Source: Rhizaria sp. SCN 62-66 (taxonomy: Eukaryota). From it: DNA of 64,000 nt. Under the pieces are notes generated by a model. It was given only the letters and a program-made list of their open reading frames with translations. It had not been told where the DNA came from and did not search any database. The DNA lies in NCBI GenBank assembly GCA_001724265.1, contig MEDY01000099.1, positions 1-64,000 on the forward strand, given 5' to 3'. Below are positions 3,840 to 35,260 of this stretch, piece after piece; within the stretch, counting starts at the first letter, position 1, and each line of letters begins with the position of its first letter. The position numbers and the translations under genes are program-made.

Positions 3840-4656
3840 CGCAAATAGACGCCTGGGCGCTCGCTTAGCGCTAGATACAGAACGCTGTAGGGCTTGTGTT
3901 CAACCGAATGTCCTGAAAACGGCTGTGGGTGCGTTGAGACAGAGCCACGTACACGTCGCTTATTTGGAGTGGAGGAGAGAGACTGGGAGTGGACCCCAGT
4001 GACAAGGAAGATTACTGGATGAGACGAAATTGAAATTATAAGTGTAATACACCATATTAAACAAGATATGTGCGTTGTGCATTTACTGTGGTGACGGTGT
4101 ATCTCTTCCAAGCCATGATATGATTGACTCGCCTTCACTGCCCAGCCAGCCTTGCACCGCGAGCCGTTGAGCCTGAAGGCTCGAATCTTGTATTAAAATG
4201 AACTGTCATGGAAAAAACACGCGTGCTACGAAGACCATCTTAAGTGATTCGAATTGCCTTTGAAGTAATCTCAAATATATTTTTAGAAAAATGCTATCAG
4301 CCATTGATTCAACGACACTCTATACACTCGAAACTTCGGCGCCGCGTGTGCGTGCAGAAGCCAGTCGACCTTTGCTTATTTACCGTGTAGCTCCTGGCAG
4401 CTTCTCTCAGATGATACCTAGTGTTTTAATGTAGAAGATTTATGGGTTTTTTGTTCCTAAGTTGCGTGATTTTTTTCCTCGTCGAGCTATCTTTCTCTAC
4501 TACGACTTCATAACTCACGCACCTCACCTCACCTCCGAATCTCCATCCCGCCCTTTCGCGCCTCCCGCTCATCAGCCTTTCTAGTCAAGTCTACACAGAT
4601 TTCAGTTTGTTGGCACCGCGCACTCCAGCCTCTCCTTCCCTTTTTTGCGTGAACCG

Positions 4657-8934: not shown

Positions 8935-9366
8935 GTATGAGTTCAGGCTTGGGCGCGAGTGCGTGACATGACTCGTGCATTCACTGTATGACGCGTCAAA
9001 AGTTCAATTTTAATACTACACTATACCTAGCAATAATGATACACACAATAGTTAATATCCAGAATAATAAACCATTTTATTACCTACTTTTGACACAACT
9101 GACGAAAGGTTATTTCCAGGGCGGCCGGAGTAACTATATGGTAAACGAAAGAATACACATTGTATTCAAAAAGAAATTGTTGCAGTTTATGCCTCTGTCT
9201 GAAAGTTACAAATAAATGACATTGTGCATCTCAAACAATAAAAACAAAATACATAGGCGTTGGCTTTGACCGGGAGCCAGTGGCAACACTCGGGCAGTGC
9301 CGCATAAAGTTTGAAGCTGATGAGTGTCGCGAGGACTTCTCGCTCAGCCCACGCTCAACTCATCGC

Positions 9367-12300
9367 TCAGAAGCTGATGAGACTTTTGCCCTCGAACTCG
9401 GACCCGTCGGTGTCGTCCAGCGCAGAGTGCGCCGCGAACCCGCGCCGCGCGCCCACGGCCCCCGCTCCGGCCACGCCGGCCGCCGCGCCGCCCTTGCCAC
9501 CGCCACCGCTGGTCTTGCGCGGCGCTTCGGGGTCATCGAGGTCCAGCTCACCGTCACGCGCGAACGCCTGCGCAAGCTTTAAGTACCCACCCTTGCGGCC
9601 GCTAGATCCGGAGCCAGAGCCAGACCCCGCGGCGGCGGCGGCAGCGTCAGCGGCGGAGTCAGCCGCGCCTGCGGGACCCGCGCCGCCCGCGGCGAGCGTG
9701 AGCGTGATCTGCTGCTGGGCGTCTGCGCGAAGCACCGTGAGCGCCTTGCGCCAGGGGTCGCGCGGGGCGAGGCCGAGGAAGAAGCGGACGGCGTCGAGCG
9801 GGCGCGACGAGTACGGGTTGGCGAAGTCGCCCGCGTCGTCCTTGAGGTGCGGGTACCGCGCGGCATTCATCACCTCGTTCGTGGTGAGATTCGACAGCAC
9901 GAGCGGGATGTGGTACCGCAACATCGTCCCCGACAGGAAAATGTACGCTGTGCACGAGACGACCCACAGCGTGAACGGGATGTGCTGCAGCACGGCGTCG
10001 AACATGCGGAACCCGGGGTACGCGCAGCGCAGAAACAGCACCCACTGCGCCTGGAACAGCAGCACGAGCAGCGCCAGCCCCAGCAGCCAGAAGATGAACG
10101 CGCGGTAATTGCCGCCACCAACGCAGTTGTTGATGAACGGGCAGTGGTGGTCGAACCGGTACACGCACTTGCGGCACAGACGGCAGTGCTTTGACCGCAC
10201 AGGCCGCTCGATCTTGCACGTCACGCACAGCGAGTGGCCCTTGTCGTCGCCGGACTCGAGCACGGCGTTGTACCCCGCGCGCGCCGCGGCCCACGAGTCG
10301 CCGCGTGGGCCCATCACGGGCCGGTACGCCGCCAGCACGGGGAAATCGTGGCTGAAATCAGCCGAGTCCGACAGCGATGACAGCGCGTGCGACGCCGCTG
10401 ACGGCGCAGTCGCCGAACCAGAGCCAGAAGAAGATGACACAGAGGCGCCGTGCTCGATGGCGCAGTCGCGCGCAGCAGCGATGGACGCGGGTAGCATGGG
10501 GTCACCGCGGAAGCCGCGCGTGACGTACCCGGGATCGCCCCACACCGCGAGGCGCCACCAGAAGACGGACCATATCAGCGCAAAGTGAGTCAGCAGCACG
10601 GGGATCGCGCCCGTCGTCGGGTACGTGTGCAGCAGGATCTTGGTCACGTAGTGGTAGTACGAGAATGCGTACACGACGGCGCACCACAGCACGAGCGCGT
10701 TGGCCTGCACCTTGGTCGCGCCCTCCCAGACGATGCCGTAGAGCCCGCAGCACCGCCGTGAGCGCCGCAACGCCACGCCCGCGGCGTCGAGCAGCCGCGC
10801 CGTGTCGGCGAAGCGCTTGCGGTCGACGGCGTTCTTGGCCTTGGCGAGTTTGCCCTGCGCCAACTGCAGTGGTGTCGCGCCGGTCGAGTCGGGCTGCTCT
10901 AGCTGCAGCCGCACGGCGCGCGCCGCGGTGAGCCCGCGTGCAGAGACGGGCCGCGCAACGCCCTGCACGTGCACCTGGACCGACGAAGCACCCGCACCGG
11001 CGCCGGCGCCAGAGCCAGCGCCGGAGAGACCCGAGGTGGAGACAGGGGAGCCCATTCCGTCGATGTCGTCGTCGTCGTCCTCGGCGGCGTCAGCGGCGGC
11101 GGTGTCGGAGAACGTGTCCTCGAGCGCGCCCGCGCCGCCCGTCTCGAGCAGCGACTCTGCAACATCAGCGTGGCCACGAATCGCGGCCCAGTGAAGCGGG
11201 TACGCATCCTCTTTATCGCGCGCCCAAGCCGAGGCGCCGTGCGCGAGCAACCAGTCCGTGGCCAGCGCGTGCCCGCCGTACACGGTCCAGTGCAGCGGCG
11301 TCTTGAGATTCGCGTCGGGCGCGTCGACCGAGAGCCCACGGCGATGGAGCCAGTCGAGCATCGTCGTGTTGCCCTGTTGCGCGGCCTTATGCATCACAGT
11401 CATTCCGGACTTGTCGGCCGCGGTGAGAGCGGCGCCGGCGGCCAGAAGAGCCTGCACGGTGCGGATGTCGCCCTTATACGCAGCCCAGTGGAGCGGGGTC
11501 TCCTCTTTCTGGTTCGTCGCGTGCACGTTCGCCCTGTGAGTGCATGTAATGGCAAACAAAAAAAGGATACAATGAGAAAATGTGTGGTCATATCACTGAT
11601 ATGAGGAATAAAACAACGTTACTTCGAAAAATCAACAAGTATTTTAAAGTGTTGTCAATATTTCACGCTAAATCGCGGAATAAAGAAAGGATTCTAGGGT
11701 ATCGTACCTGGCGTTGAGGAGGACGTCGACCATGTCCTTGCGCGATTGCATCGCGGCCCAGTGCAGCGGCGTCGCCCCCGTGGTATCCTGTTCACTCGCA
11801 TCTAGCCCCTTGGCCGCGCGCTGTGCGAGCGCGGCCTGGAGCTCGGCCACATCGCCGCGGCGCACGGGCCCGCACAGCGTCGCGTCCTGCTGCACTTGCG
11901 CGGCGAGCGCCTGGAGTTCGTGGTATTCAGCAGTGCGGCGTGCCGAGTGCTCGACAATCTGCGCGTCGACAGGGCACGCAACGCCTGCCGCGTGGGGCTC
12001 CTTGCAGTAGCCCTTGCGGTGCGCGAGCGAGGTCCAGAACAGCGGGTCGCGGATCGCGCGCGACGGGTCTTCGCCCGCCAGCACGTCCCAGTCATCGGCG
12101 TCGAAGAGCGCGGCGAGGCGGTCCGACCACAGACCCTGGGACTCGAGCGTCTTGCGGCGGAGCTCCTTGAGGTTCTGACGCAGCTCACGGAGCTTCTCGG
12201 CCTGCTCCTGCTGGCTGCGCTCGTAGTCGCGGATCTCCTGCGGGGAGAGCTTGGCCATGACGGCGACGGGGCGACCGGTCTCTTTGTCGACGTCCATCAC

Positions 12301-13425: not shown

Positions 13426-15884
13426 ATGGACTATCCAACGGCTAACTCTGCTCGCTCAGCCGACGCCTCGGCCACCGAGGCCAATGAGAACGCTGTTTTC
13501 GTGCCTACGTCCCAAAACAGCCTCCCCGTGAAGGACTCTGACGATGCGCCTCAGAGCACACGCCGCAGCGCGCGCGGCGCTCTCCGCACGCTTCCCAGCA
13601 ACGCTTCCAACGCTGCTGCCGCCGCCGCCGCTGCCGCCGCCGCCGACGGCTCCAACTCGTCCTCCGCCTCGGCATCATCCTCAGACAACGACGCGCGCGT
13701 CCCAGCGCGCCGCCCGCAGCGCTCCGGCTCGCGCCACAGCGCGGACGCAAGCGGGGAGAACGCTGCGCCCCCTAGTCGCCGCACTTCCGGTGCCAAGCGA
13801 TACTCAGACGTCGCACTGGGGCCCGTGCCCGCCCCCGTGGCATCCTCCGCGGCCGACAACGTCGTCTCTTCCTCGTCCTCGTCCTCAGACAGCGCGCAGG
13901 AGGTGGCCGAGGCGACCGCGCACGCCGGCGCAGGTGTGAAGCGCGCGCGCCTGTCGACGTCGAGCACGTGCGAAGACACTGACGAACTCAACATCTCGCT
14001 CGGCTTCACCGTCAACAACGACAACGACAAATACGACAGCGCTAGCAGCGCAGACGTAAACGACGCCCACGCTCCCGCTCGCGCCGCCGTCAACCACGAC
14101 GGCAGCGACGCGGCTCACAGCCACAGTCTCGGCCACATTCACAGTAATGCTGCTATGGCCGCGTCGGCCCCGACAGTGGTCTGTGTGAACTCTGCGCCCC
14201 CGGTCGCTCCCGTCCCGCCCCAGCCCCCCGTTGCGATCGCCGCCCCCGTTGAGCGTGCCCCCGTTGCGGCGCCCGCGCCCGTGCCAGCGCACGTCCAGCA
14301 GATTCAGCAGATGCAGCCGCAGCCTCAGCCGGTTCAGCCTCAGCCTCAGCCTCAGCCTCAGCAGGCGCAGGCGCAGGCGCAGCCTCAGCCTCAGGGCCAG
14401 GGCCCGTTCAGCGCGCTGGTCGCCCGCCTCGCCCAGTCGATGGACCCCATTTCGGCGTCGAGCCTCTCCGCAGTCTCCACCTCGGTCTCCGCGCTCGCTG
14501 GCTCGCTGGCGACGCTGCTGCCGACGCTCCAGGCGCTCGCAGGCACCGCCGGCGACGACGACGCGCGCGCCGCCGCCGCGCGCTTGCTCACGGCGCTCGC
14601 CGCGCAGCTCGCGACATTCACCGCCGCCGCCGCCGCTGGCGCTGCACCCGCCGCCGCCGCGCCCGCCGCCGCCGCCGCGCCCGCGGGGATGAACCCCAAC
14701 AACAACAACAATGTGGCGCCTCCCGCAGCGGTCAACCCCAGTGACGCCAACGGCAACCCGTTTGCCGAGAACGAGGCACGCGAGGTCTGCGCTCAGGTAC
14801 GACCACTAAAAAAAAAAAAAAAGTGATATTCTCATCTTATTTATTGTGCTTTCAAGATGTCTTTGCAAACACAACCAAAACGTAATCTCACAATACTACT
14901 TTGCCCCTCCGCACACTTGGTCCAACCTGATAGGACGCGCTCCACATGGCGTCTGCCTCTGCGGCCGGCGCGGACCGCGTCGCAGCCCCGCAGTCGGCCG
15001 TTGAGATGCTGTACGCGCGCGAGCTTGCGTATCCGGTGCAGGACTACATCCAGATCCAGCCGCAGATCACGACGAGCATGCGCGCCGTGCTGGTCGACTG
15101 GATGCGCGAGGTCGGCGTTGAGCACCGCGTCAACGTCGAGACGTACTTCATCTCAGTGCGTCTGCTCGACCGCATGCTCGCCATCGTGCCCGTGCCGCGC
15201 AAGGAGCTCCAGCTCGTCGGCGCGGCGTGCCTGCTGCTCGCGGCGAAGCTTGAGGAGGTGCACCCGCTGCCCATCCGCGGCTTCGAAGTGCTCTGCGACC
15301 ACTTGTACACGCGCGCCCAGTTCATCACGATGGAGACGGTGATCATGCGCAAGCTCAACTTCAAGTGTCACTCGCCCACAATGGCGACGTACGCCGTCGA
15401 GCTGCTCAATCTCATCGACGCGCCGTCCGCCGTGCGCTTTGCCGTCGAGTATGCGCTCTTCCTCGTCGCCGTCGACTACAACGTCGCGCTTCTCCCGGTC
15501 GCCGCCGCCGCCGCCGCGACGGTGCTGCTCGCGCTCGACGCCGTGCCGAACCCCGACGACACGCGCCCACTTGCCGTGGCGCTCATCCGCGCGCTGCCGC
15601 ACGCTGTGCGCGCCGCCGTGCCGCACGCTGCGGCGACCGTGGCCACGCCGTGGGCGCGCGTGCATACCGCCGCCAAGACACATGTCCGTGACGCCGAGGC
15701 CGCGGCCTCGGCGGGCGAGCAGGTGAACCTGCGCGACGTGCCGCAGTGCCGGTCCGCGTACGTGCGCTACGCAGCGCCCGAGCGCGGCGGGATTGCGCCC
15801 GTGCTTGCGCTGCCTCCGCAGGAGCTGCGCGCGGATGTCCTCGCGCTGTTGCGGGACCTGCCGTACCAGCCCTCGCGCCATTGA
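13426..15884 (+). CDS. A/B-type (mitotic) cyclin; exons 13426-14796 and 14934-15884, ~773 aa
   Basis: Cyclin box MRAVLVDWMREV..ETYFISVRLLDR..LQLVGAACLLLAAKLEE..METVIMRKLNF; destruction-box-like RGALRTLPSN at 13573-13602; a phase-0 intron joins EVCAQ|DALHMAS. Ends TGA. Confidence 0.9.
14797..14933 (+). other. Spliceosomal intron (137 nt) in cyclin gene
   Basis: CAG|GTACGA donor, AT-rich body with a poly-A run, GATAG| acceptor; in-frame join. Confidence 0.85.
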
Positions 15885-16903
15885 ACGGCGCTGCGGATTG
15901 AAGCCGCATGCATTTGGCGTCCGTCTCGGTGAAAGATCACTCGATATGATGTGAGTTGACTTGATGCGAGGCGGTGCTCTGCAATTTGACGCAAAAGAAT
16001 GGCAACATAATGCGATTTGTGGGGACAACAGTTCGGTGCCATTTTATGCCTACGGATGATTGAATCTGTGCATGATGCTGATGCTGCTGCTGGCTGTCCA
16101 CGTTGATGCGCTTCTTGTTGTTGCGCGTGTTTGCTGTTGACACTTGTTAAAGATTCTGCTTTTTCAAACATCTTTCTTTGGTTATATACTGTTTGCGCTG
16201 CTGTGCTCTTGATTTGTTTTGCGTTGTGTTACCGCTGTGTGATTGTTCTTGGTTCTATTGAGCAAGTTAGGTCTTGGCTTTACATGAAACAAGTTCCCGC
16301 AGTAGCACGACACCGTTGTTATCGTCTGTCTCACTATTCATAGGCAGTTGATCGCACAAATAATCAGCTACAGTGCAACGCCCTCGTCTCCCCTTCTGTT
16401 TCACAAACATATTACAATGACGATGTCTGCGACGCTCGTGGACTTTAGTCTGATGTGGCCAATTTTTCATTTTTTTGCTTTTCCTTGTTCATTTGATTGG
16501 TTCTTTTTAATAGTTTTTGATGTAGTTGTTCCAGCAGTAATACTTTGTATCGATAAAGACCACTGTTACTTTAATCATTGTTCAGGAGTAAAAAATACAC
16601 GTGTCTTCTTCGAAAATGGCTCGTCATATTTCACGATTGCGTTTAGATTGCGTTCGCTCAGAAACAATCAAAAACTCTGATAAAGCAGTTTACTAGTGTA
16701 TTTATGAGTAACAGCAACAATATTTAAAATTGAATTCGCTTTCCAAAGCAAGCAATGGCCCAATTTTGACTTCCTTTCCTTCCACGCATCACAACGCATC
16801 ACGAACGCCTCACATCGTTCTCACTCAGTCATTGCGCGCGCAGCTCTGGATAACACGGCGTGGCGCGGCCAGCCTCATGTTTACCGTCACATGTGTGGCG
16901 CGC

Positions 16904-21012: not shown

Positions 21013-24000
21013 ATGGATCAGCACGTCTCCGCCAGGCCCACGAGGACCCAGCGGCTTCTTGCGCTGGTTGCCAAGTATGTCCAGGCAAAGTACCCCACGG
21101 CAGTTGCGTCTGCTCCGCTCAGCTCTTCATTAGCTCCCACAGCGCCTGTCACAGTCCCCTTGCCCACCGACTCAGCAGCGCACCGCGACGCCGCCGTCGC
21201 CGTAGCAGAGCGCGCCTGGCTGCAGACCATCGCCCCCCAATCAGCCCCCGCGGCTTTTCCGCGCGCGTCTGACGTCACTCTTCCGTCTGCAGCCTCCGCG
21301 GCATCGCTGGCGGCAGGCGCAAGTTCATTGACAACAGCAACAGCAGTCTCCTCCTCGTCACCGCCACAGTTCTCACCGCCGCAGTTCTCACCGCCGCCAC
21401 CGCCGAGCGCCGAGCCCGCGCCGCTCTCCTCCGCGGCGCTGCTGCGCGACATGGCCGGCAGCGGCGTGCTTGACGCGCTATCCGCGATGCACACCGAGTG
21501 CGTGGCCGACATCGCGCCCACACTCGTGGCCGCCTGCGAACACAGGGTCGACGCTCTCATGCAGGCGCTCTTCCCCGGGATCACGCCTCCGCCGCCCACG
21601 ACCACGTGCCCCGTCTCCGCCGCGCTGGGCCCCGCCGCGGCCCCGCTGCCCGCCGACGTGGCCGCGTACTTGTCCGCGCACGTCGCGACCGCCAGCGCCA
21701 CAGCCGCCGCGGCCGCCGCGGCCGTGATCAGCGGCGACGCTGCGGTGGCCGGCTGGGACGGGGACTGGGCGCGCCTGCTTCCGCCCGTGCGGCTCGCGCT
21801 GGCGCACTATGACACGCCTGCCGTGCTGCCGCCGCCGTTGACGCTCTCAGCTGCCACTGCGATCGCGCTCGCTCTAGGCCCCCTCGAACCAAAGCGCTCG
21901 CGAGCGCTAGGGCAAGGACGCAAACGCACTGTGCCTGACCGTGACCATGATCGTGATCGTGGGCGTGATCGTGACCGTGACCGTGGGCGTGACCGTGGGC
22001 GCAGTCGTCGGAGTGGCCGGAGTCGAAGTAGTGACCGGAGCCGGAGCAGGGACAGGCGCAGTCGTGACCAAAGTCACAGTCTCAGTCCTCATCATCGATC
22101 TCTTAATGACTCGCGCCCGCTTTCTCGCTCTTAGCCGCATTGTCATCCTCACTCACGTCTACAGTCACGGTTACAGTCCGGCGCTCATTCACGCTCACGC
22201 TCTCGCTCTCACTCGCTGTCGCGATCGCGCTCCTGGTCACGCTCACGCTCACGCTCACCTTTGCGCCCACGGTCACGCTCACGCTCACCACCGCGCTCAC
22301 GCTCACGCTCACGCTCACCACCGCGCTCACGCTCACCACCGCGCTCACGCTCACCACGGTCGCGGCCACTCTCGCGGCCGCGGTCACGTTCGCCACCACG
22401 CCCACAATCACGCCCACGGTCACGTTCAAAGTCACGCTCATGGTCTCGCTCACGTTCTCAGTTGCGCTCCCCGCGCAGCGGCACAGCTTTTACCTCCGAC
22501 GATGACGCCAAACCTCGCGCGGAAGCTGCCGCAGATGCCTGCGCTGAATCTGCCGCTGAAGCTGACGCAGAAGCCGCCGCGGAGACTGCGGCGGAGGCAG
22601 AGAGTGTGCTCAAGTTCATGTCTCGTCTCTCAACGCTCTCCGCTGGCGAGCGCGCCGAGGTCTTCCGCGCGCACCCACACCTGGCGGCTTACCTTCCCGC
22701 CCCGGACACCCTCTCCACGCCCGCCGCGGCTCGCGCGCGTGTGTTTGCCGCACTCAACGCGCCCGCCGTCGCCGCTACGACCGCGCTGGCTCTCGCGCAA
22801 GCCGAATATGCCGCCGCACAGGCCGCCGTGGTCGCCGGGGCCGATCTGCGCACTGCGCGAGGCCGCGAGCGCGCGGCTGAGGCTGGCGCGAAGCTTCTCC
22901 TGCCACTGCTGCTCCCGCAAGCAACGGCCGCCACCTCGTCGCAGCAGACCGTTGCATCGATGTCCGAATCCGACACTGTCGCTGTCCCTGCACCCGTGAT
23001 GACTGATGCGAGTCGTCGTACCGATACGGACCGTGACCGTGAGGCTCTGGCAGCGGACTTCTCTGCAGCGCTGGCGCGGGCACTAGGCGCGTGTCCTGCG
23101 CTCCTGCCCGCGACGCCCGCCGCCGCCGCCACTGCAGGCGCGCTGTCCGCGGCCTGCGACCGCTGGCAAGCCGTGTTGTCAGTGCTGCGCTGTGCCCACA
23201 GCCGCGCGCGCGCCGCCGCAGAGCAGTGGGAAAACGAGGACGCCGTTACTGCCGCCGCCGCCGCTGCTCACGCTGACCGTGACCGTGAACGCTACAGCTC
23301 CTCAGCGCCCGAATCAACTCTCTCGCCTACTGGAACGCAAACGCAAACGATTACGCAGATGCAGACTCTGGCGCCTGCGGTGTCGTTGGCGCAATTCCGT
23401 CCCCGTTACCCGCCCGCGCCCGGCGCCGTGTTGTGCGTGTGCGGCGGCGCGTGCGACAGTCTGCTGCAAGGGCTGTTGCCGACGTACCTCGGCGGCGGCG
23501 TGTTCGCGCCGGGCCGCGCGGACCCGTACACGCACGCCCACGCGTTCGGTACGCGTGGGTCCGTGTGGTCCGCCGCCGCAGACGCCGCAGCAGACGTGCG
23601 CGCAGTGCCGCCACCGCCGCTAATCACTGCCGCCGCCGCTGCAGTGGCCACGGTCACGTCCCCAATGGCCGGCGCGGCGACGGCAGCGGCGGCGGAGTCG
23701 GCCGGACTGGTTGGCGACGGCGGGGGCGACGAAGTGTGGCGGCGCGAACAGATGTGGCAGCAACAGAACCGGAAGAAGCTCGAGATGATGCGCTATGGGA
23801 TGAAGAAGAGCGAGGTTGAAGAGAGTGTTGTCTATAAGTCTATCGGAACCTGGGGCCGGCTGCCGACTGCGCGGCCTACTGCGCCCGCTACGACTGCGGT
23901 CGCACCAGCCGGGGCGCCGGCGGCGGCGCCAGTGAGGCCGGGACGCATTCCACTCCGCAGCAAACCGGCGACGTTTAGTAGCACTACGCTGGGGGTTCCG

Positions 24001-24066
24001 GCGCCGATTTCGAGCAACGAGAGCCAGACGCAGAGCCAGACGCAGAATCAGGGCCAAACCAAGTGA
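21013..24066 (+). CDS. RS/RSP-repeat protein of unknown family (~1017 codons) interrupted by one in-frame TAG at 22132-22134
   Basis: Track ORFs 21007-22134 and 22261-24066 are in the same frame, and the 42 codons between them are open (PHCHPHSRLQSRLQSGAHSRSRSRS...). RS-rich composition is continuous across the TAG with no AT-rich spacer or intron. Ends TGA followed by an AT-rich UTR. Confidence 0.75.
21937..22460 (+). repeat. Coding tandem repeats: GACCGT-type hexamers (DR/RD) and TCACGC hexamers / CCGCGCTCACGCTCACCA units (RS, RSPP)
   Basis: Directly visible imperfect tandem arrays at ~21937-22000 and ~22185-22460. Confidence 0.85.
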
Positions 24067-24706
24067 TGTTTATTTGCGGGCATTGTTAACATGTTTCAAG
24101 TCAAAAAGACGCAGATTCTTTAATATCTTATTGTGGGTGTAATAAGTGGAATAAGACTATATGTTTTATATTTAATTACACTCTTTTATTTCGATCACTA
24201 TGTTACTATAGCACGCTTACTTAGCGCATTAGACTGATTTACACAGCGTTACATTGTCTCAAATCGTCTAATGTGTTGAGAATACACTAGTATTATCAAT
24301 ATTCCAGTCAGAATATTCAGGTTATAATTTACTTTTTTATTATTCATATGTTATGTCGTTGTTTTGAATCAATATGACTTTATTTCAAGTTGCTTCATAA
24401 CAAAATGACCCAATTTGTGCCCGTCCTGCGGATCTGAAGACAAAGTGGAGAGCAGAAGGCAGGTAGAGCAGGAAAAACGACCACATTAGTAGACGCATAG
24501 GATCCGACTAGTAGTCACATGCGACTATTTATGAAAACTTTGATGTTATTTGTATTGAATTCCTTATTACAAGCTTACAAAACTTTGACTGTCGTGTATT
24601 GTGCTCTATCATATTCCTCCTTAGAGAGTAACCGTTGCTCAGTCTTCCTTGACATCATTGAACAAGCAAGAGCGACACACACAGCCCTCACCAGACCCAC
24701 GCCGCG

Positions 24707-27700
24707 ATGAACCAAAACTCCCGCGGGGGTGCGTCTTACGGACGCGGTGGCGGCAACAGCTTACAGTCTGGTAATGCGCCTGGAGGCTACGCCAACCTGG
24801 CCGTGTCCAAATTCGCCAAAACGCGCGCTGCAGCCTCCGACGCCTCCCCCGCAAGCACTGTACTCCCCGTCTCCGGCCCTGCCAGCGCTTTGCTGCGCGG
24901 CAACGTTTCACGCTACATCCGCAACGACAAAATGTCCCTCGCGCACGCAGCCGTCACGATCCCACTGACTGCGCCCGCGTCGATGGAGACCCCCCACGCG
25001 TTACCTGCCGCGACCCGCGACGCGGCGTACCGCGAGTTCCTCGTCCGCTACGCGCAGCGCCTGGGCGTCACGCCCACGGACGCGCTGCTCAAGGACCTGG
25101 CGCGGCACGTGCGCCGCGACCAGCTTGCTGTAGTGCCGCTGTGGCGCGCGCATGGCTACAAGCGTGACGAAGTTATAGTCGCTCCGCTCGAGCTCGCTGA
25201 CCGGTCACACGCCGCCGCCGCAGCGGCCGCCGCAGCCGCAGCAGCAGCTGCAGCCGCCGCGGCCGCTGCGGAAGAGGCCGCGATTGGCGACATGGGCGTC
25301 TCAATCCTCAACGCAGGCAGCGGCAGCGGGGGCCACAACAACAACAACAGCGGCGGCGGCAGCGGTGTTCCCTTAGGCCCGCCCTCTGCCAACACTATCT
25401 ACGCGCCTTCTTCCTCTTCGTCATCCTCATCGTCCTCCTCTTTGGCCGGCACCGCGACATCGGGCATCGCTGCTGGCGCGGGCGCGGGTTCGGGCTCTCT
25501 CGCCGCCGCCGCCGCGCCGCTGGCCCCGCTCCCTCGCGGCGCCGCCGTCGCGCACGAAACGCGCACCGCGCTTGCACTGCGTGTCGCGCGCGCCGAGCGG
25601 GACGCCTTCGTGGCCGCCGCGCCCGCCGCCGCCACAGCAGCCTCCGCAGCGCCCTCCGCGGCCGCCGTCGCCGCCGCCGCGGGCCCGCTCCCTGGCGCCG
25701 GCGCGGGCCGCCTGCTGAACCAAACTCAGGCCGCGCGCCGCGCCGGCCGCCGCGCGCGGGCCGCGGTCGGGGGAAGTGCCGCTGGCGCCGCCGCCGCGCC
25801 GCTGTTTCCACTGCCTGTGTTGGCGGCGCACGCGCGCGCGATGGCCCCGGAGTTCCCTCGCCCCCCTAGCGCAGACCGCGACCGTGACAGTGAGCATGAC
25901 CGTGGGCTTGATCGCTTCAGTAGCCACCATAGGAGCGAGCGCGACCGTGACCGTGAGCGCGCAAGTGACCGTGAGCGCGCAAGTGACCGTGAGCGCAGAG
26001 GCTCTGCCGCCCGGCGCACCTCGCTACCGCGGCCGCAGTCGCCAGACTCGCCCACCTCAACCTCGGCCGCCGGCTCCTCCCTCCACAGCGGCAGTGCCAG
26101 TTTTGGCGACGTCATCGCTCCCGCGACGGGCGTGGCGTACCCGCCGTTTCTGCTCCCGCCTGCGCCCGGCGCCACGGGACTCGACCCCCTCGCGTCGCTG
26201 CTCGCCGCGCGCAACGCGCCGCCCTCCGGCGCCGCCGCGGCCGCCGCAGCCGCAGCCGCGATTGCAGCCAGCGCGGGCGGCGCCGCCGCCGCCGGGGTCG
26301 GACTGGGCGCGGGCGCGGGCGGCGGCGCGGGGATGCTGTCGACGGCAGCCGCCAATGCGGTCGGCTACGGCATGGACGCCAACGTCGCCGTGCTGCAGTC
26401 GGCCGCCGCCGCGCGATACCGGCCCCAGCAGCAGCAGCTTCAACAGCTTCAGCAGCAGCAGCAGCAGCAGGGCAGCGGCGTGCAGCCGCAGCATTACACA
26501 GCCGCCGGCGGGAACAACAGCAATAGTGGTGCTGAAGTGCGCCGACTGGCCATTGCACGCTCTGTGGCCGCGCAAAAGGCCGCCCAGGACGCGCGCGCAG
26601 GCCCGCTGACTGCGGCGGCGGCGTGGGGCGACGAGAGCGCGCTCCTGGCCGCCGCAGACGGCGCCGGCGCGCGCGCGCCCTCGTTCACAGCGCAGCACGC
26701 CGGCGGCGGCATGCAGTCCCCACAACAGAGGTAGTCGGGACAGTCGGGGCTGGCCGCGAGCGCGGCGGCGAGCGCGGCCCTGGCGCCGCTGGCCATCACG
26801 CTGACGACCGCGCAGCAGCTGGAGCGCCAGCAGCAGGCGCGGCTGCAGCTGCAGCAGCAGCAGCAAGCACAGCTCCAGCTGCAACAGCAGCTCAAGTTCG
26901 GCCCCGGGCGCTCCGCCGCCGCAGCCGCAGCCGCCGCGGCCGCGGGCACGGCGAACGCGCTCGACGCGGCCGCCGCCGCTGAGGCCGCCGCGGCCGCGGG
27001 CGGGAGCGGGCTTACGGCTGCAATCCTCTCGCTCCCACGGCCCTCCGCCGCCGGTCTGCGCCTGCTGACCGGGCTCAACGCGAGCCTGGACGCGGCGCGC
27101 GGCGCGGCGGACGCGGTGCAGCTGGTGACCGTCTGGCGCAAGCGCGAGCGCGAGGAGCGCAAGAAGCGCGAAATCGCCGAGCTCGAGGCGTTGCGCGCGC
27201 GCAGGCAGGCCAAGGTCTCCGCGGCGGCCGCGGCGGCGGCGACAGCCAGCGCGGCCGCAGCCAGAGAAGGCACCGACACCTGGACCAGCCGCTCCTCAGC
27301 CACGTCCTCCTCTTCTGCTGCGGCCGCTGCGGCTGCTGCGGCGGCGGCGGCACAGGCGGCGCGCGAGGAAGCCGAGGAAGAGGCCGCGTATCACCGCGCG
27401 GGCCTTGCGCTGCTGCAGCTTATCAACCGCACAGAGGAAGATGACGACGCTGACGAGGCCGCCGCCGCCGCAGCCGCAGCAGCCGTCGCGGCCGCGGGCG
27501 GCGCGACGCCCGGTGCGGGGCTCGGGCTTGCGCTGGCGCCCGTAATCGAGGACGGTGGCGGCGTTCTGGGGCTTGCAGCACAGATCGCAGCCGCGGACGC
27601 GCGCTCAGCCGCAGATGCTGCCGCAGCCGCCGCAGCCGCTCAGCCCTACATTAGCCGCCGCACGACCGCGCCCGCCGGCGCCGCGCTGGCTCCCAACGTG

Positions 27701-30700
27701 TCCCCGCGGCGCTCCGGCGGCGCGGCGGCCTCCGCGGCGGCCACTGGGGCGGCTGCAGCGACCGCGGCGGCGGCGACGCCCGCGTCTGTGGCTTTCGCCG
27801 CGGCGGCCTCCGCGAGCGCGGCGGCGGCGCTGACTACGGCGGCCGTATCGTTTGACCAGACCGCGTGGTATGCTGCAGTCGCGCTTACCTCGGTCGGGCT
27901 CGGCCAGGGCTCCGCGCTGGCGTCAGGTGCGCCTGCGCCGGGCACCGACGCCGCTGCTGCCGCGGCTGCGGGCGCGGGCATCGACGCCGTTGACTCTGCC
28001 GTAGCGCCCATCACCGCTCCGAGCCTGTCCGGGAGGGCGCGCTCCGGCAGCGACGCCACTCCGCATGGCCACGGCTACGGCCATGGGCACAGTCGCGCGC
28101 AGTCGCAGTCTGCGCGCGGTTCGGCCTCTCTGGAATCCAGCGAGGCCGGCAATGATGTCGAGGCGGGCTCGCGCGCGGCCGAGCGCCAGCGCCTGTCGTC
28201 GCTGCTGTTGGCGCTGCCCATGGCGCTCAACCCCGCTGCCACCGCCGCGCGCGCCGCCGCCGCTGCCGCCGTGGGGCCTGCCGGTCACAGCGCGGGCTCC
28301 GACTCCGACGCCGACGCCGACACGGGCGACGACGGCGACGACGACGCGGCTGCGGACGGTGCGCTGTCGGCCCGTGGCGGAGAGCAGTCGCAGGCGCAGG
28401 GCCAGGCGCTGCGCACGAAGCAGCTCGCCGCACGCGTGCACAACGTCGCGCGCGCCGTCTTCGGACCCGCGGGCAGACACGGCGCGCACAACGAGCAGCA
28501 GCTGCATCAGCAGCAGCAGCACCCCGCATCCCCTGACTTCGCTTCAACCCCCGTATCCGCAGGTGGCGCCGAGGGCTCGGTCTCTTCGGCTGTCTCCGCG
28601 GCCGCAGCTGCAGCGCTGGCTACCGCGGCGGCCGCAGAGCGCCAAGCGCGCGCGCGCGGCAAGGCCCGCGAAGCGCGTCGGCGCGTGCGGCACGGCTTCC
28701 GCAAGAACAAGCTGTTTCACCCCGAGGAGTTCAACGGCCCGCGCTACGGCGGCGTCGTGTTCCCGTCCTCTAACAACGGCGCCCAAGGCGGCGCGGTGAC
28801 GGGCCGCGGCCGGGGTCAGATCGACGGCAAGAGCAAGGGCGACGGCAATGCCGACGGCGGCGACGGCGACGGCGCGCACACGCTGCACAGCCTGGTCAAG
28901 GCCGACGCTGTGGGCGTTGACAGCGACGATAGCGAGTACTGGTACGAGCCCTACGAGCTGCACAAGCGCGTTGTCGACGAAAAGAGCGATGACGATGACG
29001 ACGACGCAGCCGCCGCCGCGGCCGCCGCAGCCGCCGCAGCCTCCACCTCCGGCGCTGGCGCAAGCGCAGGCAGCGGCTCTGGAGCCACGTCCGCAGGCTC
29101 TGACGCTCCTGGCACTGCAGCGGACGCGGACCGCGCTGCCACTGGCTCCGCGGCAAGCGGCAACCCCGCAGCGGCCCCCAACACGAGCGGCGGCGGCAGC
29201 AGCGTGAACGTGGACGAGTACGGCGAACGCAAACTGCACACGCCGCACCCGTCGTTCGCGTTCCCGCGCACGGGCGCGGCGCACTCGTTCCTGCGCCTGT
29301 CGCCCTCGCGCATGGTGCTGCTGGGGCTCGACCGCGGCTGGTCCGGCTACACGGCACTGTCTTTCCGCGCGTTCACGCACGCAGAGACGCACGCGATCAA
29401 CGCGCCGAAGCTCATCGCGCAGATCCGCACGCCATTGTCGCTACCGCCGCGCCTGGTGCCGACGCTGCACCGGCTCTTCCTGCTGTCCTTCCCGTCTGAC
29501 GTGTTCCGCAACCACTACGGCAAGCCCGACATGGATGCCGTGGCCGCCGTGGTGCTGTCCGAGCCCGCCGTGCGGCTCACTGAGCTCACCGCGCATTATC
29601 TCTACCACTCTATCTTCCCCGCGCCCGCCACCGCGACCGCGACGACACTCAGCACCGTGGGGCTGCCAGAGGGCTTTGTGGCCGGCGGCGCGCTGTCGGC
29701 GGCGCAGCAGCAGGACCTGGCGCTCGCCATCGTGCTGCTGCACCGGGAGATCGACCGCGCCCTGCGCGGTTCACGCGCGCGCGCGTACTCACTGCTACTC
29801 GCGCCGCTGCTGCTGGACTGCGTCGAGGCCGTCGTGCTGGCAGTATTCCGCACGAAGTTCTCCGAGTGGTTCCTCTCAGAGATGGCTGAGCCCACCGAGC
29901 GTCTCGTCGCCACTGCAGTCAACAGGCTCATGGGCATGGAGGCCGCGCTGCCGCCGGTGACCGCCACCTCCGCCGCGGCCGCGGGCCCTGCCGACGCAGT
30001 TGCGAACGCGACGAGTCACAGCTATCACTCGACCGGCTTGCTCGCCACGCACCACGGCGGCGGCAACGGCGAGCGGATTGCGCACATGCGCCCGCTCCCG
30101 TCCTCCGTGCCGTCTTCCTTCGCGGCTGCCGCGGTGGCGGGCACTGCCGCAGCGGCGTCACTGTCAGCGCACGCGACCGCGCCGCCGCCGTCGTTTGCGT
30201 CCCCGCTGCTGCTGGCCGACGTGCACTTCATCCGCCGTCTCACGGGTCTCGCTTTCCCGCGCGGCGCGTCCTCGCTTGCGGCCCCGCGCCGCACGCTCAC
30301 GCACGACCCCGCGGCCAACACTACCGCGACTGTGTTTAACGCCGCAACTGGGGGCGCTGGTGCTGACACTGCGGACAACACGATGCAGCTACACATGCAG
30401 ATGCGCTCCGCAGCGCCGTTACCGCCCACCGTCGCCTCCGCCGTGCGCGGATGGGGCAGCGCTGCATTGGCACCAGCATCCTCTGCATCGGCGTCAGCCT
30501 CAGCTTCAGCCTCAGCCTCAGCATCGTCGTTTCCCGCGACAGCGCGGCTATTCGACGCGAGTGTCGCGTGCGTGGACCCTATCTCGCTGCCGCCGCTGGT
30601 GCACGCCGTCGTCGCGCGCACTGCGGCCGCCTTCGCGCTGCTCGCGCCCGTCGCCACGGGACTGCGCGGCGTCGAGGCGCGCCGGTTGCTCTCAGGCCCC

Positions 30701-32581
30701 TACGTCGGCCAGCAACAGCCCGGCCGCGCTGTCGTGCTCGCACGCGCCGCCGCAGCCCGGAACGGCGGCGGTGACTCTGACGCTGAGGCGGTTGCCGGCG
30801 TCAGTCCTGCGGCCGCCGCTGCGGCGCTGGGCGTGCTCGCGTCTGTGGGCGTCGAGCCAGAGCAAGTACCCACGGTCGCGCGTGCGCGTGGCTGGAACGA
30901 GATTCTGCTCGCGCTCGCGGGCCGGGCCGCGGCTGAGGACATGGTCGTGCCTGTCTGGCTTCAGTACCAGGCTCAGGCGCAGGCGCAGTCTCAAGCTCAG
31001 GCACAGATGCAGCTGAACGAAGCCGCCAAAGCACGCACGAACGGCCGGCCCGCAGCTGGCTTTGGCGGCATGCGCGCTGAGATCATCCCTGCACACGCAC
31101 AGACCACGCAGCACTCGCACGCCATCCCCGTTGCTGCACCTGCTGCTTCAACTGCTACCCCTCGCATACTTAATGCGGCGCTCTCCGCGCCTTCGTCTTC
31201 GAAGCCGCCCTCCGGCTCTGGAGCCGCTGCAACGACCGGCGCCAGTGCTGCGACTGCGCGCCCGTCACGCCTTGCGACTTTGTCTCTGCTCCCGGCCTCC
31301 GCGCCTGGTGCTGCTGCGGCGCCCACGCTGCGCGATTTTAACAGCGGCCCCTCAGCTGCCACTGCGAATGTACGTGTGCCTGTGGGCGTCTTTGTCTTCG
31401 CTGGCGGCGCTGTCACGCCAGCTGTCGTTGCAGCTTCTGACGCATCGGCGCGCGCGCTCGTAGGCTCTGACCACGGACTCGAGCATTCGCAGAACCAGAG
31501 TCAGAGTCAGCTGTGGTGCCTCAGCACGATGTCCTCAGTGCCCAGCGCACTGCGCCGCGAGCCAGCGCCCGTGCTCTCACGCGCCACCACCGCGGCCGAG
31601 CCCGGCGCGCGCCCCGTGAGCTCAATGACGTCGCCGCTCGTCGCGGCCGCCGCGGCGTCGCTTGCCGCCTCCGCAGCAGGCATTGCGCGACCGACGTACA
31701 CGCGCACTCAGACGTTTGTGCCGGCCTCGTTTGACTCTCACGCAGCGGCGGCTCAGGAGACGCAGCAGCTCACGTCTGCGCCGCTGCTGCCGTTGACTGG
31801 CATCGTGTTCACGTCTCCAGAGCACCAACGTGGCGGCGCTTTTTCCGACGCACAGCCCAGCCCCAGCTCGCCCGCGCGCGTGCGCTCGCGGCCGTCATCG
31901 TCGTCGCTGACGTCGATGACGCAGTCCCAGTCCCTGGCGGCACCGCTGACGCAGGCTATCTGGCGCGGCGTTGGCGCGGGCTCGTCTACCACGACTGTAT
32001 CCGCAGCCGAGGCAGGTTTTGTGCCCTCTGCCGCGCTGTATCTGGACACGGTGAAGGCGAGCGCGCAAACGATCTCGCGCGACGCCGCCGCCGTGCTCGC
32101 CGCGGCCGCAGCCACCGACGCAGTCGCCTGCGCGCACAACGCAGCCGCGGCCGCCAACGCACTCCTGGCCAGTCCCGGCGCGGCGGCGACGCCCGCGGGC
32201 GGCAGCCCCGGTAGCCGCGACGCGGCCCGGCTTGCGCTCACCGCGCCCCGGCTCGGTGTCTGGACCGGGGGACTCAGCTCCACAGCGAGCGCGTCCACCA
32301 CGAGTCCTGCGAAGAGCAGAGGCCACGACCTATCGGGCACCGGCGCAGTCGCTGGCGCTGCGGTGTCCGGCACGGGCCAGCCTCTGAGAGCGCTTGCAGC
32401 CGAGATTGCGGTGCCGCTGGTGTACCAAGACCGCATGGCGACGGTGTCGTCAGCCGTGGGCGCTGGGCGTGGTGGCAAGGGCGTGGGCGGGACGCGTGCG
32501 CCGATGCAGACTTCGGTCGCGTTCCAGTACACGCAGCGCTATGTGCTTGACCAAGGAAGCAAGGATGACGACAAGAAGTGA
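24707..32581 (+). CDS. Large Ala-rich protein of unknown function (~2624 codons) interrupted by one in-frame TAG at 26732-26734
   Basis: Track ORFs 24707-26734 and 27116-32581 are in the same frame, and the 127 codons between them are open and coding-like (SGQSGLAASAAASAALAPLAITLTTAQQLERQQQARLQLQQQ...). No AT-rich spacer. A globular-looking helical region lies at ~29236-29940. Ends TGA followed by an AT-rich UTR. Confidence 0.75.
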
Positions 32582-33358: not shown

Positions 33359-35260
33359 TTACGCGAAGGGGTCAAGCGAATCGAGCGAGTTAGTGGGCTT
33401 CTTAGCGGGCGCAGAAGTGGTCGAGGACGCCCCGTAGCTGCTGGTGCTGCGCGCTGCGCCGCCCTGGTTGTTGCTGCTGCCGGTGCTGCCGCCGCCAATG
33501 CCGCTAAAGGGGTCGAAGACGAGCCCGTTAGAGCCGGGCTGCTGCTGCTGCTGACCGTACATGCCGCCCTGGTTCAAACCACCGAAGGAGTTATTCTGCT
33601 GCTGCATGCCGTAACCCTGGTTCATGCCCATGCCACCGTAGCCCTGGTTCATCTGGCCCATGCCCATGCCGCCGTAGCCCTGCTGCTGCATGCCGTAGCC
33701 CTGGTTCATACCCATGCCACCGCTCATCCCGTAGCCCTGATTCATGCCACCCATGCCCATGCCGCCGCCGTACATCTGCTGCTGCTGGTGCTGCTGCTGG
33801 TGCTGCATGCTCTGCTGCTGCAGCATCGCAAACGGGTCCGCCTGCGGCTGCTGCTGCTGCTGAGGCTGGCCCCACGCATTGTTGCTGCCGTTGCTGCCGG
33901 TAGAGGTCGACCCGCCCAGCGCAGAGGCCAGGAAGTCGAAGTCGCCGCCGCCAGACTGCTGCTGCTGCTGAGGCTGCTGCTGCTTCGCCTCGGGCTCTCT
34001 CGACGCCGCCGCGGCAAAGGGATCCACCGCCGCGTGCGCAGACGCCGCAGCGGGCGCGGGGGACGACTTTGTGGCCAGCGACGAGCGACGCGCGGTAGTG
34101 TTGTTGCTGGGGGGCGCGAGAGTCGCGGGCGGGGCGGCGGGCGCGGCAGTCTCGCCAGTGGCGACGCTAAACGACGGCGGCGCGGGGCCGTCCTCCTGGA
34201 ACGGGTCGGCGCTGCGGGCGGCGGCGCCACCGCGCGCGGCGCCGGCGGGCGCGGGGGCCGGGGAAGCCTGAACGCGGCGTGCGTTGTCGTTGGCCCACTG
34301 GTCGTTGCCGTTGTCGTCGAAGGGGTCCTCGTCGTCGTCGCGGAAGCTGGCGCGGCCGCGGGGCTTCTTGCCGCCCGCGCCGCCGTCGCGGGGCCCGTCC
34401 TGGGTGAACTCGTCGATCCCCATGGAGCCAAACTCGTCGTGGTACTCCTCGTCGTGGGTCGAGCGCGTGTTGCCGCGCGCGCCGCCGGCGCCGCCTCTCG
34501 CGTTGCCATGGGCGTCGCCGCCGGAGTGGGAGCCGTGGCCGCCGTAGCGGTCGTCGTTGTTGTTACCGCCGCCGCTGCCGGGCTGGTAGCGCGAGTTAAA
34601 GTTGGTGTTGGAGTAGCCGCGGAAGCGGTTGTCACGGTTAAGCTGCTCGGCCTTGGCGCGCTCCTCAGACAGGAGCTCGTCGTTGGTCAGCAGGCGCAGC
34701 AGCGGGCCGGCTTTGAGACGGATGTCGCCGCCCACCTCGCGGTTCTCGTCGTTGTAGAACTTGTAGCGCGTCAGTTGCTCGATGTCGCGGCGGCGCATCT
34801 TGCAGTCGTCGATGAAACACTCGTCACCGTGGCGCAGCACGTAATCGACGAGAATGAGCGCCTTAAGCACGTGGCGCGGCTGCTCGTGGTCGGTCACGCG
34901 CTTCCAGATCATGGCGAACATCTTCTGGTACTCCGTGGGGGAGTTGCGCGTCGCCGCGGCAATCTCGTGCATCTGAGTGGTCAGAACAGCGATGTAGATA
35001 GGGAATTGAATTGTGAGTGACGGAGTGAAAGGAACAATTAAAGAAGAAATAAATCAGTAATTTAAGCTTGCACCGTAGCTAGGGGCAGAAGGAGAAGGAG
35101 TCTGACGTTAAATTGAGAGCGTATTAATCGCCAGAAGATTTCGTACCTGAGAGCTGGAGGCACCCCACGCCTCATTACTGGTGCATTCGCGGACCTTGTT
35201 CTCCAGGTCAGTGTAAGTCACGCTCTTCGCGGCGCGGACAATGCTCTTAAGCTTATCCAT
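33359..35260 (-). CDS. ENTH-domain epsin-related clathrin adaptor (epsinR/CLINT1/Ent3-like); exons 35260-35147 and 34972-33359, ~575 aa
   Basis: ENTH motifs YTDLENKVRECTSNEAWGASSSQ|MHEIAAAT..IWKRV..HVLKALILVDYVLRHGDE..DIRLKA..LLTNDELLSEER; six DPF motifs, a DFDF motif and a Met/Gly/Gln-rich C-terminal region. Ends TAA. Confidence 0.92.
34973..35146 (-). other. Spliceosomal intron (174 nt) in ENTH gene
   Basis: CAG|GTACGA donor, CTCAG| acceptor, phase 0; restores the ENTH WG.SS.QM motif. Confidence 0.92.

What the first reader, a model, noticed from the sequence alone, without database searches (positions are those of the whole stretch)
21013..32581. Candidate UAG recoding: two adjacent genes each contain one in-frame TAG, and no gene here ends in TAG
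Seen: single in-frame TAGs at 22132 and 26732 sit inside continuous coding-like sequence. The seven visible terminators are TGA (CLK, DHHC, cyclin, POLD1, 24066, 32581) and TAA (epsin), and I found no internal TAA or TGA in roughly 19,000 codons of gene models. Known: nuclear codes where UAG alone is sense while UAA stays stop have been reported in a few protists (Gln in the fornicate Iotanema, Leu in a rhizarian), and A-to-I editing of UAG to Trp repairs premature stops in some ascomycete fungi. Inference: UAG may be a rare sense codon or be recoded site-specifically. Against free reassignment: the 9274-codon ORF has no in-frame TAG, both TAGs lie in low-complexity regions so the amino acid cannot be read from conservation, and seven terminators is a small sample.
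Basis: partly seen in the sequence, partly recalled or inferred. Interest (0 to 1): 0.88.

Follow-up and report, generated by a model that had tools for sequence, protein, structure and literature searches.

The report
Two in-frame TAGs, recoding unproven
Two neighbouring genes of an uncultured, GC-rich wastewater protist each carry one real in-frame TAG inside continuous coding sequence, but the data at hand fit ordinary premature stop codons better than a changed genetic code.

Summary
TAG lies at 22132-22134 and 26732-26734. Each joins two long ORFs in one frame. Neither site looks like an intergenic spacer or an intron of this organism.

TAG2 certainly interrupts one coding region: 495 ATG-free codons follow it, with GC3 0.90-0.94 either side. 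It is the first codon of a 9-nt tandem TAGTCGGGA|CAGTCGGGG, so its ancestor was probably CAG.

TAG1 is weaker. It lies in an RD/RS low-complexity stretch at the axis of an imperfect inverted repeat.

- 0 of 7 TAG terminators has P 0.13-0.44.
- 61-65% of random one-step nonsense changes here would give TAG.
- The other 15,437 in-frame codons, POLD1 included, hold no TAG. Known UAG-sense lineages carry dozens in conserved genes.

Nothing tested the recoding idea directly. There is no whole genome, no tRNA in the window, no homologue spanning either TAG, and no listed contig piece bridging either TAG.

My odds: standard-code premature stops about 0.55; UAG read as sense or read through about 0.17; TAG1 as a normal gene end about 0.15. 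A genome-wide check is cheap and worth doing.

The parts
21013..24066 (+). Gene 1 read as one unit: 1017 codons, ATG 21013 to TGA 24064-24066, with one in-frame TAG. No Pfam family.
22132..22134 (+). TAG1, in-frame, inside an RD/RS low-complexity stretch. The next in-frame ATG is 161 codons downstream, at 22618.
21930..22018 (.). Left arm of an imperfect inverted repeat (72-78% complementary). It reads RDRDRG in the gene frame.
22235..22457 (.). Right arms of the same inverted repeat. They read SRSRSP in the gene frame. The midpoint of pair I1 is about 22126, 6 nt from TAG1.
24707..32581 (+). Gene 2 read as one unit: 2624 codons, ATG 24707 to TGA 32579-32581, with one in-frame TAG. No Pfam family.
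24950..25288 (+). Conserved unnamed N-terminal domain of gene 2 (residues 82-194). It has remote homologues of 30-35% identity in 5 short metagenome proteins.
26732..26734 (+). TAG2, in-frame. GC3 is 0.90-0.94 in the same frame on both sides. The next in-frame ATG is 495 codons downstream, at 28220.
26732..26749 (+). 9-nt tandem TAGTCGGGA|CAGTCGGGG (*SG|QSG). TAG2 is the counterpart of a CAG Gln codon.
   Evidence: (printed sequence)
14797..14933 (+). Reference intron of this organism: 137 nt, GC 0.36, GTACGA...TAG. It joins the exon ending at 14796 to the exon starting at 14934, with phases consistent.
11534..11707 (-). Reference intron of this organism: 174 nt, GC 0.34, GTACGA...CAG. It joins the ankyrin exon to the ankyrin/DHHC exon.

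Best explanation
Both TAGs are real in-frame nonsense codons in the DNA, most simply CAG-to-TAG transitions. They lie inside two otherwise intact, low-complexity, lineage-restricted genes of an uncultured GC-rich flagellated eukaryote that uses the standard code. Translation mostly stops there, giving products of 373 aa and 675 aa. The long open downstream parts (643 and 1948 codons) are still intact because the changes are recent or segregating loss-of-function alleles in poorly constrained genes. Any full-length protein would come only from ordinary low-level near-cognate readthrough. Shown: the TAGs, the frame continuity, and the absence of spacer or intron features. Inferred: the CAG origin, the recency, and termination at the TAGs.
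For: TAG2 lies in continuous coding sequence. GC3 is 0.90 and 0.94 in the flanking 150-nt windows of the same frame. 495 codons follow before any in-frame ATG. At the off-frame stop rate of gene 2 (76 stops in 5248 codons), an open stretch of 495 codons has P about 8e-4 by my arithmetic. TAG2 pairs with CAG in a 9-nt tandem. CAG (540) and the other one-step neighbours of TAG are abundant codons, so 61-65% of random nonsense changes give TAG. The other 15,437 in-frame codons hold no TAG, including POLD1 with 1136 codons. Both affected genes are alanine/glutamine/serine-rich. They have no Pfam family and almost no detectable relatives: 6 hits at E<=1e-3 among 1.84 billion representatives, none near the TAG. 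That is the kind of gene where truncating alleles are tolerated. An independent study's run (X3) holds 0.93 of the sampled words of 21500-31499. It showed only 2 differing places over the 20 kb laid, neither at a TAG. This argues against a consensus error.
Against: Two premature stops in two adjacent genes, with no other disruption in 643 and 1948 downstream codons, is itself improbable. My rough estimate is about 1% per window of ten genes. Placed uniformly, two events would both fall in genes 1 and 2 with P 0.036-0.049, so some local or gene-specific cause is needed. Contigs of a poly-A RNA run lie on both the upstream and downstream parts of both genes at 0-1 differences. This is not what strong nonsense-mediated decay would predict, but contigs cannot give expression levels and DNA carry-over is not excluded. 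No listed piece bridges either TAG, so their presence in other samples is inferred, not seen.
Confidence: 0.55

Rival explanations
1. UAG is decoded as a sense codon, most likely Gln. This would be either a rare codon of an incipient UAG-only reassignment (tRNA-Gln CUA, weakened eRF1 recognition of UAG) or efficient gene-specific readthrough. Both genes would then be made full length.
For: Both interruptions are TAG, and none of 7 terminators is TAG. The downstream ORFs are fully intact. TAG2 is the repeat counterpart of CAG, so reading it as Gln gives a perfect QSG-QSG. No spacer, intron or start-site features occur at either site. UAG-only reassignment to Gln or Leu has precedent in protists (PMC5304391, passages read).
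Against: The frequency is only 2 in 19,078 codons, and 0 in POLD1, CLK, DHHC, epsin and the 9274-codon ORF. Published cases carry 71 UAGs in 8 conserved proteins. The terminator tally and the 'both TAG' point are not significant. No tRNA is in the window. No readthrough context is recognisable (TAG-CCG and TAG-TCG), and folds downstream are not better than shuffles (z +2.60 and -1.36). Known programmed readthrough extensions are, to my recollection, usually tens of residues, not 643-1948.
Confidence: 0.17
2. TAG1 is the ordinary terminator of a 373-aa gene, and a separate gene starts at ATG 22618. Only TAG2 is then an anomaly (a single premature stop).
For: The 483 nt between TAG1 and ATG 22618 is a normal spacer length for this contig. 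All three + frames are open through most of this repeat, so openness there says nothing. A codon model trained on the other genes does not favour frame 1 between about 21883 and 22482; two of its training stretches were out of register, so it is weak. GC3 drops to about 0.5 there. TAG1 sits at the axis of an inverted repeat, a plausible end-of-gene structure. GC in the 60 nt after TAG1 (0.57) is within the range after true stops (0.28-0.68).
Against: 8 of 8 true spacers contain a 100-nt window with GC <=0.31, while the TAG1-to-ATG stretch never falls below 0.59. All 9 accepted starts have upstream-200 GC of 0.41-0.54, against 0.63 for ATG 22618. The two ORFs share a frame (chance 1/3). The RS-type sequence runs on across the TAG, also in the non-repetitive 22019-22234 part. 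A codon-like GCN/GAN stretch (22495-22617) precedes the ATG.
Confidence: 0.15
3. One or both TAGs are assembly or consensus errors of a low-coverage metagenome contig, or an arbitrarily chosen minor allele.
For: Depth of this organism is only about 5-7 in the laid runs. Both sites lie near low-complexity repeats where contigs break (repeats skipped at 22182-22326 and 26217-26333).
Against: Run X3, from another study, shares 0.93 of the words. It differs at only 2 places in 20 kb, neither at a TAG. Both TAGs sit in locally unique sequence.
Confidence: 0.06
4. A-to-I RNA editing turns UAG into UIG (Trp) in the mRNA, as in the sexual stage of some filamentous ascomycetes.
For: Both stops are UAG, the triplet that system is recalled to prefer. 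TAG2 lies in the unpaired apex of a predicted hairpin.
Against: That fold is not better than chance (z -1.57; 11 of 200 shuffles fold as well). No A>G row at either TAG appears among the 40 difference rows shown for the laid runs, RNA run X5 included, though 59 rows were not shown. The HYDIN-type giant gene points to a flagellated organism, not a filamentous ascomycete. The repeat partner of TAG2 is CAG, not TGG.
Confidence: 0.02
5. Each TAG lies in a short intron that is spliced out.
For: TAG1 follows a branch-point-like CTTAAT and a pyrimidine run and ends in AG. TAG2 lies in AG|GTAGTC.
Against: The two verified introns are 137 and 174 nt, GC 0.34-0.36, and both start GTACGA. Among 84 and 246 GT..AG intervals of 30-400 nt around the TAGs, the lowest GC is 0.51 and 0.67, and none starts GTA[CAT]G. 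The eight lowest-GC TAG1 candidates all have length = 2 mod 3 and would break the frame. No GT..AG joint at either site is among the 15 joints shown, though 811 were not shown.
Confidence: 0.02

Closest known systems
UAG-only nuclear code variants (UAG=Gln in the fornicate Iotanema spirale, UAG=Leu in the rhizarian exLh; PMC5304391, passages read)
   Same: Only UAG appears in frame. UAA and UGA serve as terminators in the small sample. The repeat partner of TAG2 suggests Gln.
   Different: Those organisms carry many in-frame UAGs at conserved positions of conserved genes (71 in 8 proteins; 96 in the conserved blocks analysed for Iotanema). Here there are 2 in 19,078 codons, none in a conserved gene, and both in low-complexity sequence.
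Premature termination codons from CpA-to-TpA (CAG-to-TAG) transitions in weakly constrained genes (general knowledge, recalled)
   Same: Single nonsense codons in otherwise intact ORFs. TAG is the expected product given this codon usage. A CAG counterpart sits in the adjacent repeat unit. The genes have no detectable family.
   Different: Two adjacent genes are hit, and nothing else is disrupted downstream. Persistence across samples taken ten years apart is inferred only.
Programmed stop-codon readthrough of cellular and viral genes (recalled)
   Same: A long open frame continues directly behind a single stop, in the same frame.
   Different: No recognised stimulatory context and no significant downstream structure. 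The extensions of 643 and 1948 codons are far longer than usual for cellular genes. Conservation could not be tested.
A-to-I correction of premature UAG codons in Sordariomycete sexual development
   Same: UAG inside coding sequence of otherwise intact genes.
   Different: The organism is flagellated by its HYDIN-like gene. No RNA/DNA difference was seen or could be excluded. The repeat partner is CAG, not TGG.

Membership tests
UAG-only stop-to-sense reassignment | In-frame UAG at conserved positions of conserved genes | tested here: not met
   0 TAG in POLD1 (1136 codons), CLK (1425), DHHC/ankyrin (1013), epsin (537) and the HYDIN-like ORF (9274). Both TAGs lie in low-complexity sequence with no alignable homologue.
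UAG-only stop-to-sense reassignment | UAG not used as terminator genome-wide | tested here: inconclusive
   0 of 7 terminators in the window; P=0.13-0.44 under a standard code. No genome is held.
UAG-only stop-to-sense reassignment | tRNA with anticodon CUA | not testable with these tools
   0 tRNA genes in the 64 kb and 0 Rfam matches. No other contig of the organism was reachable.
UAG-only stop-to-sense reassignment | Altered eRF1 N-domain | not testable with these tools
   eRF1 is not in the window, and no genome is held.
Programmed stop-codon readthrough | Stimulatory 3' context or downstream RNA structure | tested here: not met
   The contexts are TAG-CCGCAT and TAG-TCGGGA. The 120 nt downstream fold with z +2.60 and -1.36 against shuffles.
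Programmed stop-codon readthrough | Stop and downstream frame conserved in relatives | not testable with these tools
   No orthologue was found. A related species is visible only in POLD1 and epsin contigs.
Spliceosomal intron of this organism | GT..AG, AT-rich (GC about 0.35), 5' site GTACGA, 137-174 nt | tested here: not met
   the lowest GC among candidates is 0.51 (TAG1) and 0.67 (TAG2), and none has a GTA[CAT]G start.
Ordinary gene boundary | AT-rich spacer between stop and next start | tested here: not met
   8 of 8 true spacers have a 100-nt window with GC 0.19-0.31. TAG1-to-ATG has a minimum of 0.59 and TAG2-to-ATG 0.66.
A-to-I premature-stop correction | A>G difference between RNA and DNA at the UAG | tested here: inconclusive
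   No such row is among the 40 differences shown, but 59 rows were not shown and no listed piece bridges the sites.

The most novel reading that the evidence does not exclude
An uncultured, GC-rich, flagellated wastewater protist reads UAG as glutamine at low frequency while keeping UGA and UAA as stops. This would be an early stage of a UAG-only reassignment, caught with only a few UAG sense codons in fast-evolving genes.
Probability: 0.15. Interest if true: 0.85.

Novelty: already known. Interest (0 to 1): 0.4.

Why it matters
If UAG were decoded here, this would be a rare UAG-only nuclear code. It would also be an intermediate with very few reassigned codons, the stage that theories of code change predict but that has hardly been observed. 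If the TAGs are premature stops, as I think more likely, the finding is ordinary. It then mainly warns that 'both are TAG' and 'no TAG terminators' are expected by chance in a GC-rich genome. The organism recurs in wastewater and bioreactor runs from 2015 to 2025, so the deciding data already exist publicly.

Tried and rejected
- **Whole genome:** none is held.
- **Word-index protein searches (3 of 3), no hit:**
  - Gene 2 residues 380-980 among proteins of 1443-4594 aa. Swamped by low-complexity words; 8000 candidates scored.
  - Gene 2 N-domain among proteins of 371-1182 aa; 6432 candidates.
  - A 200-aa piece centred on TAG2 among proteins of 110-350 aa; swamped again.
  - These are no evidence of absence. 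Other lengths were not searched.
- **HMMER over 1.84 billion representatives:** queried with gene 2 residues 1-1200 read by table 15. It gave 6 hits at E<=1e-3. Five are on residues 78-224 and one is a low-complexity RD hit. There was no self-hit and nothing across the TAG.
- **Metagenome scan anchored on POLD1:** 80 loci kept of 573 relatives found, all 47-61% identical, so unrelated eukaryotes.
- **Genome contigs and viral contigs:** nothing.
- **Read laying:** I laid 20 kb on 4 of the 11 listed runs. Low-complexity cross-matches dominate. No listed piece bridges either TAG, and most rows were not shown. It neither confirms nor refutes TAG in other samples, expression, splicing or editing. 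Parts without RNA cover are not evidence.
- **ESM Atlas:** no usable hit for the gene 2 N-domain. For residues of 29150-30400 there is only a weak lead to CATCHR-type tethering subunits (score 0.90, 147 shared features, recognition 1458). I do not rely on it.
- **Pfam and PDB profile searches of the N-domain alignment:** nothing significant.
- **Codon model:** two training stretches, the DHHC stretch and the giant ORF, were taken out of register. In-frame stops in the training set betray this. It separates frames poorly in the RS repeat, so I use it only as weak support.
- **Earlier-findings look-ups:** empty.
- **Literature:** my searches found no paper on a code variant in a wastewater eukaryote of this kind. 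This is not a claim of absence beyond those three searches. Supplementary tables of PMC5304391 were not seen.
- **Lineage:** the organism's lineage could not be determined.
Full report
**What the window is.** The 64 kb has coding stretches of 60-78% GC separated by AT-richer spacers. The genes lie on both strands. Identified genes are:
- a CLK-type kinase, an ankyrin-DHHC palmitoyltransferase, DNA polymerase delta and an epsin/ENTH protein;
- an ORF of at least 9274 codons that runs off the window and carries ASH/HYDIN/CFAP65-type Ig domains. This points to a flagellated or ciliated eukaryote.

Two spliceosomal introns can be placed exactly, with consistent phases: 14797-14933 on + and 11707-11534 on -. 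They are 137 and 174 nt long, GC 0.36 and 0.34, and both begin GTACGA.

The DNA is found almost unchanged in bioreactor, wastewater, activated-sludge and fuel-cell metagenome runs from 2015 to 2025: 10 rows from 6 studies, 3 of them holding half or more of the words. No whole genome is held. The lineage remains undetermined.

**The observation.**
- TAG occupies 22132-22134 and 26732-26734.
- Each TAG joins two stop-to-stop ORFs in the same frame: 403+643 codons and 690+1948 codons.
- From the first ATGs (21013 and 24707) the read-through genes are 1017 and 2624 codons.
- The seven visible terminators are 6 TGA and 1 TAA.
- My gene models hold 19,078 in-frame codons with 2 TAG and no TGA or TAA. 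Because the models are ORFs, that count is partly circular.

**Are these gene boundaries?** All 8 real spacers contain a 100-nt window of GC 0.19-0.31. Between TAG1 and the next in-frame ATG (22618, 161 codons on) the minimum is 0.59. Between TAG2 and its next ATG (28220, 495 codons on) it is 0.66. The 200 nt before the 9 accepted starts have GC 0.41-0.54, against 0.63 and 0.74 for the two candidate internal starts.

For TAG2 the case is closed. GC3 is 0.90 and 0.94 in the same frame on both sides. The 60 nt after the TAG have GC 0.85, against 0.28-0.68 after true stops. At the off-frame stop rate of this gene (76 in 5248 codons), 495 open codons have a chance of about 8e-4 by my arithmetic.

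For TAG1 the case is weaker:
- It lies in 750 nt of RD/RS repeats where GC3 falls to about 0.5.
- All three + frames are largely open there.
- My codon model does not favour the gene frame. Two of its training stretches were out of register, so this point is weak.
- TAG1 sits 6 nt from the midpoint of an imperfect inverted repeat, arms 21930-22018 and 22235-22457, 72-78% complementary. The downstream SRSR reading is thus the antisense image of the upstream RDRD reading.

I give 'TAG1 is an ordinary terminator' about 0.15.

**Are these introns?** No. None of the 84 (TAG1) or 246 (TAG2) GT..AG intervals of 30-400 nt that include a TAG resembles the two real introns. Their lowest GC is 0.51 and 0.67, and none starts GTA[CAT]G. 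The eight lowest-GC TAG1 candidates would all shift the frame.

**Where did the TAGs come from?** TAG2 is the first codon of the 9-nt tandem TAGTCGGGA|CAGTCGGGG. Its counterpart is a CAG glutamine codon. This fits a C-to-T transition, and equally fits UAG read as Gln. TAG1 has no such partner.

- TAG is a rare triplet here for reasons of codon usage. Off-frame stops are TGA 737, TAA 121, TAG 103. With TAG at 11% of terminators, 0 of 7 has P=0.44; even at 25% it has P=0.13.
- CAG, GAG, TCG, AAG, TAC, TTG and TGG are common codons. So 61-65% of all one-step routes to a stop end in TAG. Two random nonsense changes are both TAG with P about 0.4.
- Against free reassignment, the remaining 15,437 codons, including POLD1, have no TAG. 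In the published UAG-only codes, eight conserved proteins of the rhizarian exLh held 71 in-frame UAGs and the analysed Iotanema blocks held 96 (PMC5304391, passages read).
- Two events placed uniformly would both fall in genes 1 and 2 with P 0.036-0.049. This clustering is awkward for a uniform rare sense codon. For nonsense mutation it requires that these two genes be unusually tolerant.

**Direct tests that I could run.**
- The window has no tRNA gene and no Rfam match.
- Neither gene has a Pfam family.
- Three word-index searches found nothing, two of them swamped by low-complexity words.
- A full HMMER pass over 1.84 billion representatives, with gene 2 residues 1-1200, found only remote relatives (30-35% identity) of a short N-terminal domain, residues about 82-194. 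It found no self-hit, and nothing reached the TAG. This shows the upstream part of gene 2 is a real gene. It says nothing about the TAG.
- Scans of the three contig collections gave no contig of this organism or a close relative.
- The single read-laying run was noisy. The same strain is present in an independent DNA study and in a poly-A RNA run, with pieces of 250-2700 nt showing 0-2 differences. RNA-run contigs lie on both halves of both genes. But no listed piece bridges either TAG, most rows were not shown, and contigs cannot show levels or ends.
- Run X3 differs from the window at only two places in 20 kb, neither at a TAG, and holds 0.93 of the sampled words. A consensus error is therefore unlikely, though the TAGs themselves were not seen in X3.
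- Local RNA folds around and behind the TAGs are no better than shuffles: z +0.65, -1.57, +2.60 and -1.36.

**Weighing.** The trivial explanations fail for TAG2 and are unlikely for TAG1. What remains is a choice between premature stops under the standard code and some form of UAG decoding.
- Two single, clean premature stops in adjacent genes are uncommon. My rough estimate is about 1% for a ten-gene window.
- A code variant is also uncommon a priori. It would have to be one with almost no UAG usage, unlike every described case.
- Both affected genes are long, low-complexity and nearly family-less, which is where truncating alleles survive.

My odds:

| Reading | Odds |
|---|---|
| Standard-code premature stops (both sites) | 0.55 |
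| UAG decoded or read through | 0.17 |
| TAG1 an ordinary gene end, with TAG2 a lone premature stop | 0.15 |
| Assembly error or minor allele | 0.06 |
| RNA editing | 0.02 |
| Introns | 0.02 |

**Verdict.** The recoding interpretation is not supported by any positive evidence, and its two statistical props fall away, but it is not refuted. The deciding analyses are cheap and use public data that my tools could not reach: terminator tally and codon inference on the organism's other contigs, tRNA-CUA, raw DNA and RNA reads at the two sites, and the orthologous locus in the related species seen in runs X4/X5.

Noticed in passing
window 35980-63999 (+), runs off the 3' end: A single ORF of at least 9274 codons from ATG 36178, with no intron and no stop. 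ASH, Cep192, HYDIN/CFA65 and CFAP65 Ig-like domains match in its last third. The first 5000 residues have no Pfam match. It is probably a HYDIN-like ciliary protein with a very long low-complexity N-terminal part.
   Followed up: partly
window 21930-22018 and 22235-22457: An imperfect inverted repeat (72-78% complementary, 56-83 nt arms, 8 pairs). Its left arm encodes RDRDRG. Its right arms encode SRSRSP in the same + frame, the antisense image of the left arm. The axis is about 6 nt from TAG1.
   Followed up: partly
window 14797-14933 (+) and 11534-11707 (-): The only two introns I could place both start with the identical hexamer GTACGA. Both are AT-rich (GC 0.34-0.36) in a 65-78% GC coding background.
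   Followed up: partly
window 18769-18856, 19267-19315, 34688-34811, 35174-35231: Contigs of runs X4/X5 differ from the window at positions mostly spaced by multiples of three in POLD1 and epsin. This is a related species or strain with mainly third-position divergence in the same habitats.
   Followed up: no
L067:14-1972 and L070:3-2526: Two unrelated metagenome POLD1 loci (58-59% identical, GC about 0.40) have several in-frame TAG/TAA in the matched frame but almost no TGA. L067 has 6 TAG and 1 TAA. L070 has 22 TAA, 4 TAG and 1 TGA. These are likely organisms with UAR-sense codes, or introns. I did not examine them.
   Followed up: no
window 24950-25288 (+): An unnamed conserved domain of about 110 residues, with consensus ...IP..P....P..L......EY..RY.E.IG..P......L.K.LP......W...G...D.... 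It is shared with 5 short metagenome proteins and has no Pfam or PDB match.
   Followed up: partly
window 3-3899 (-): A 1299-codon ORF that runs off the 5' end of the window, with no Pfam family.
   Followed up: no
window 8932-8943, 9355-9369, 16813-16827: Three of the six TGA terminators (CLK, DHHC, POLD1) are followed by G, and further TGA triplets occur within about 20 nt. This may be a terminator context preference. The sample is too small to judge.
   Followed up: no
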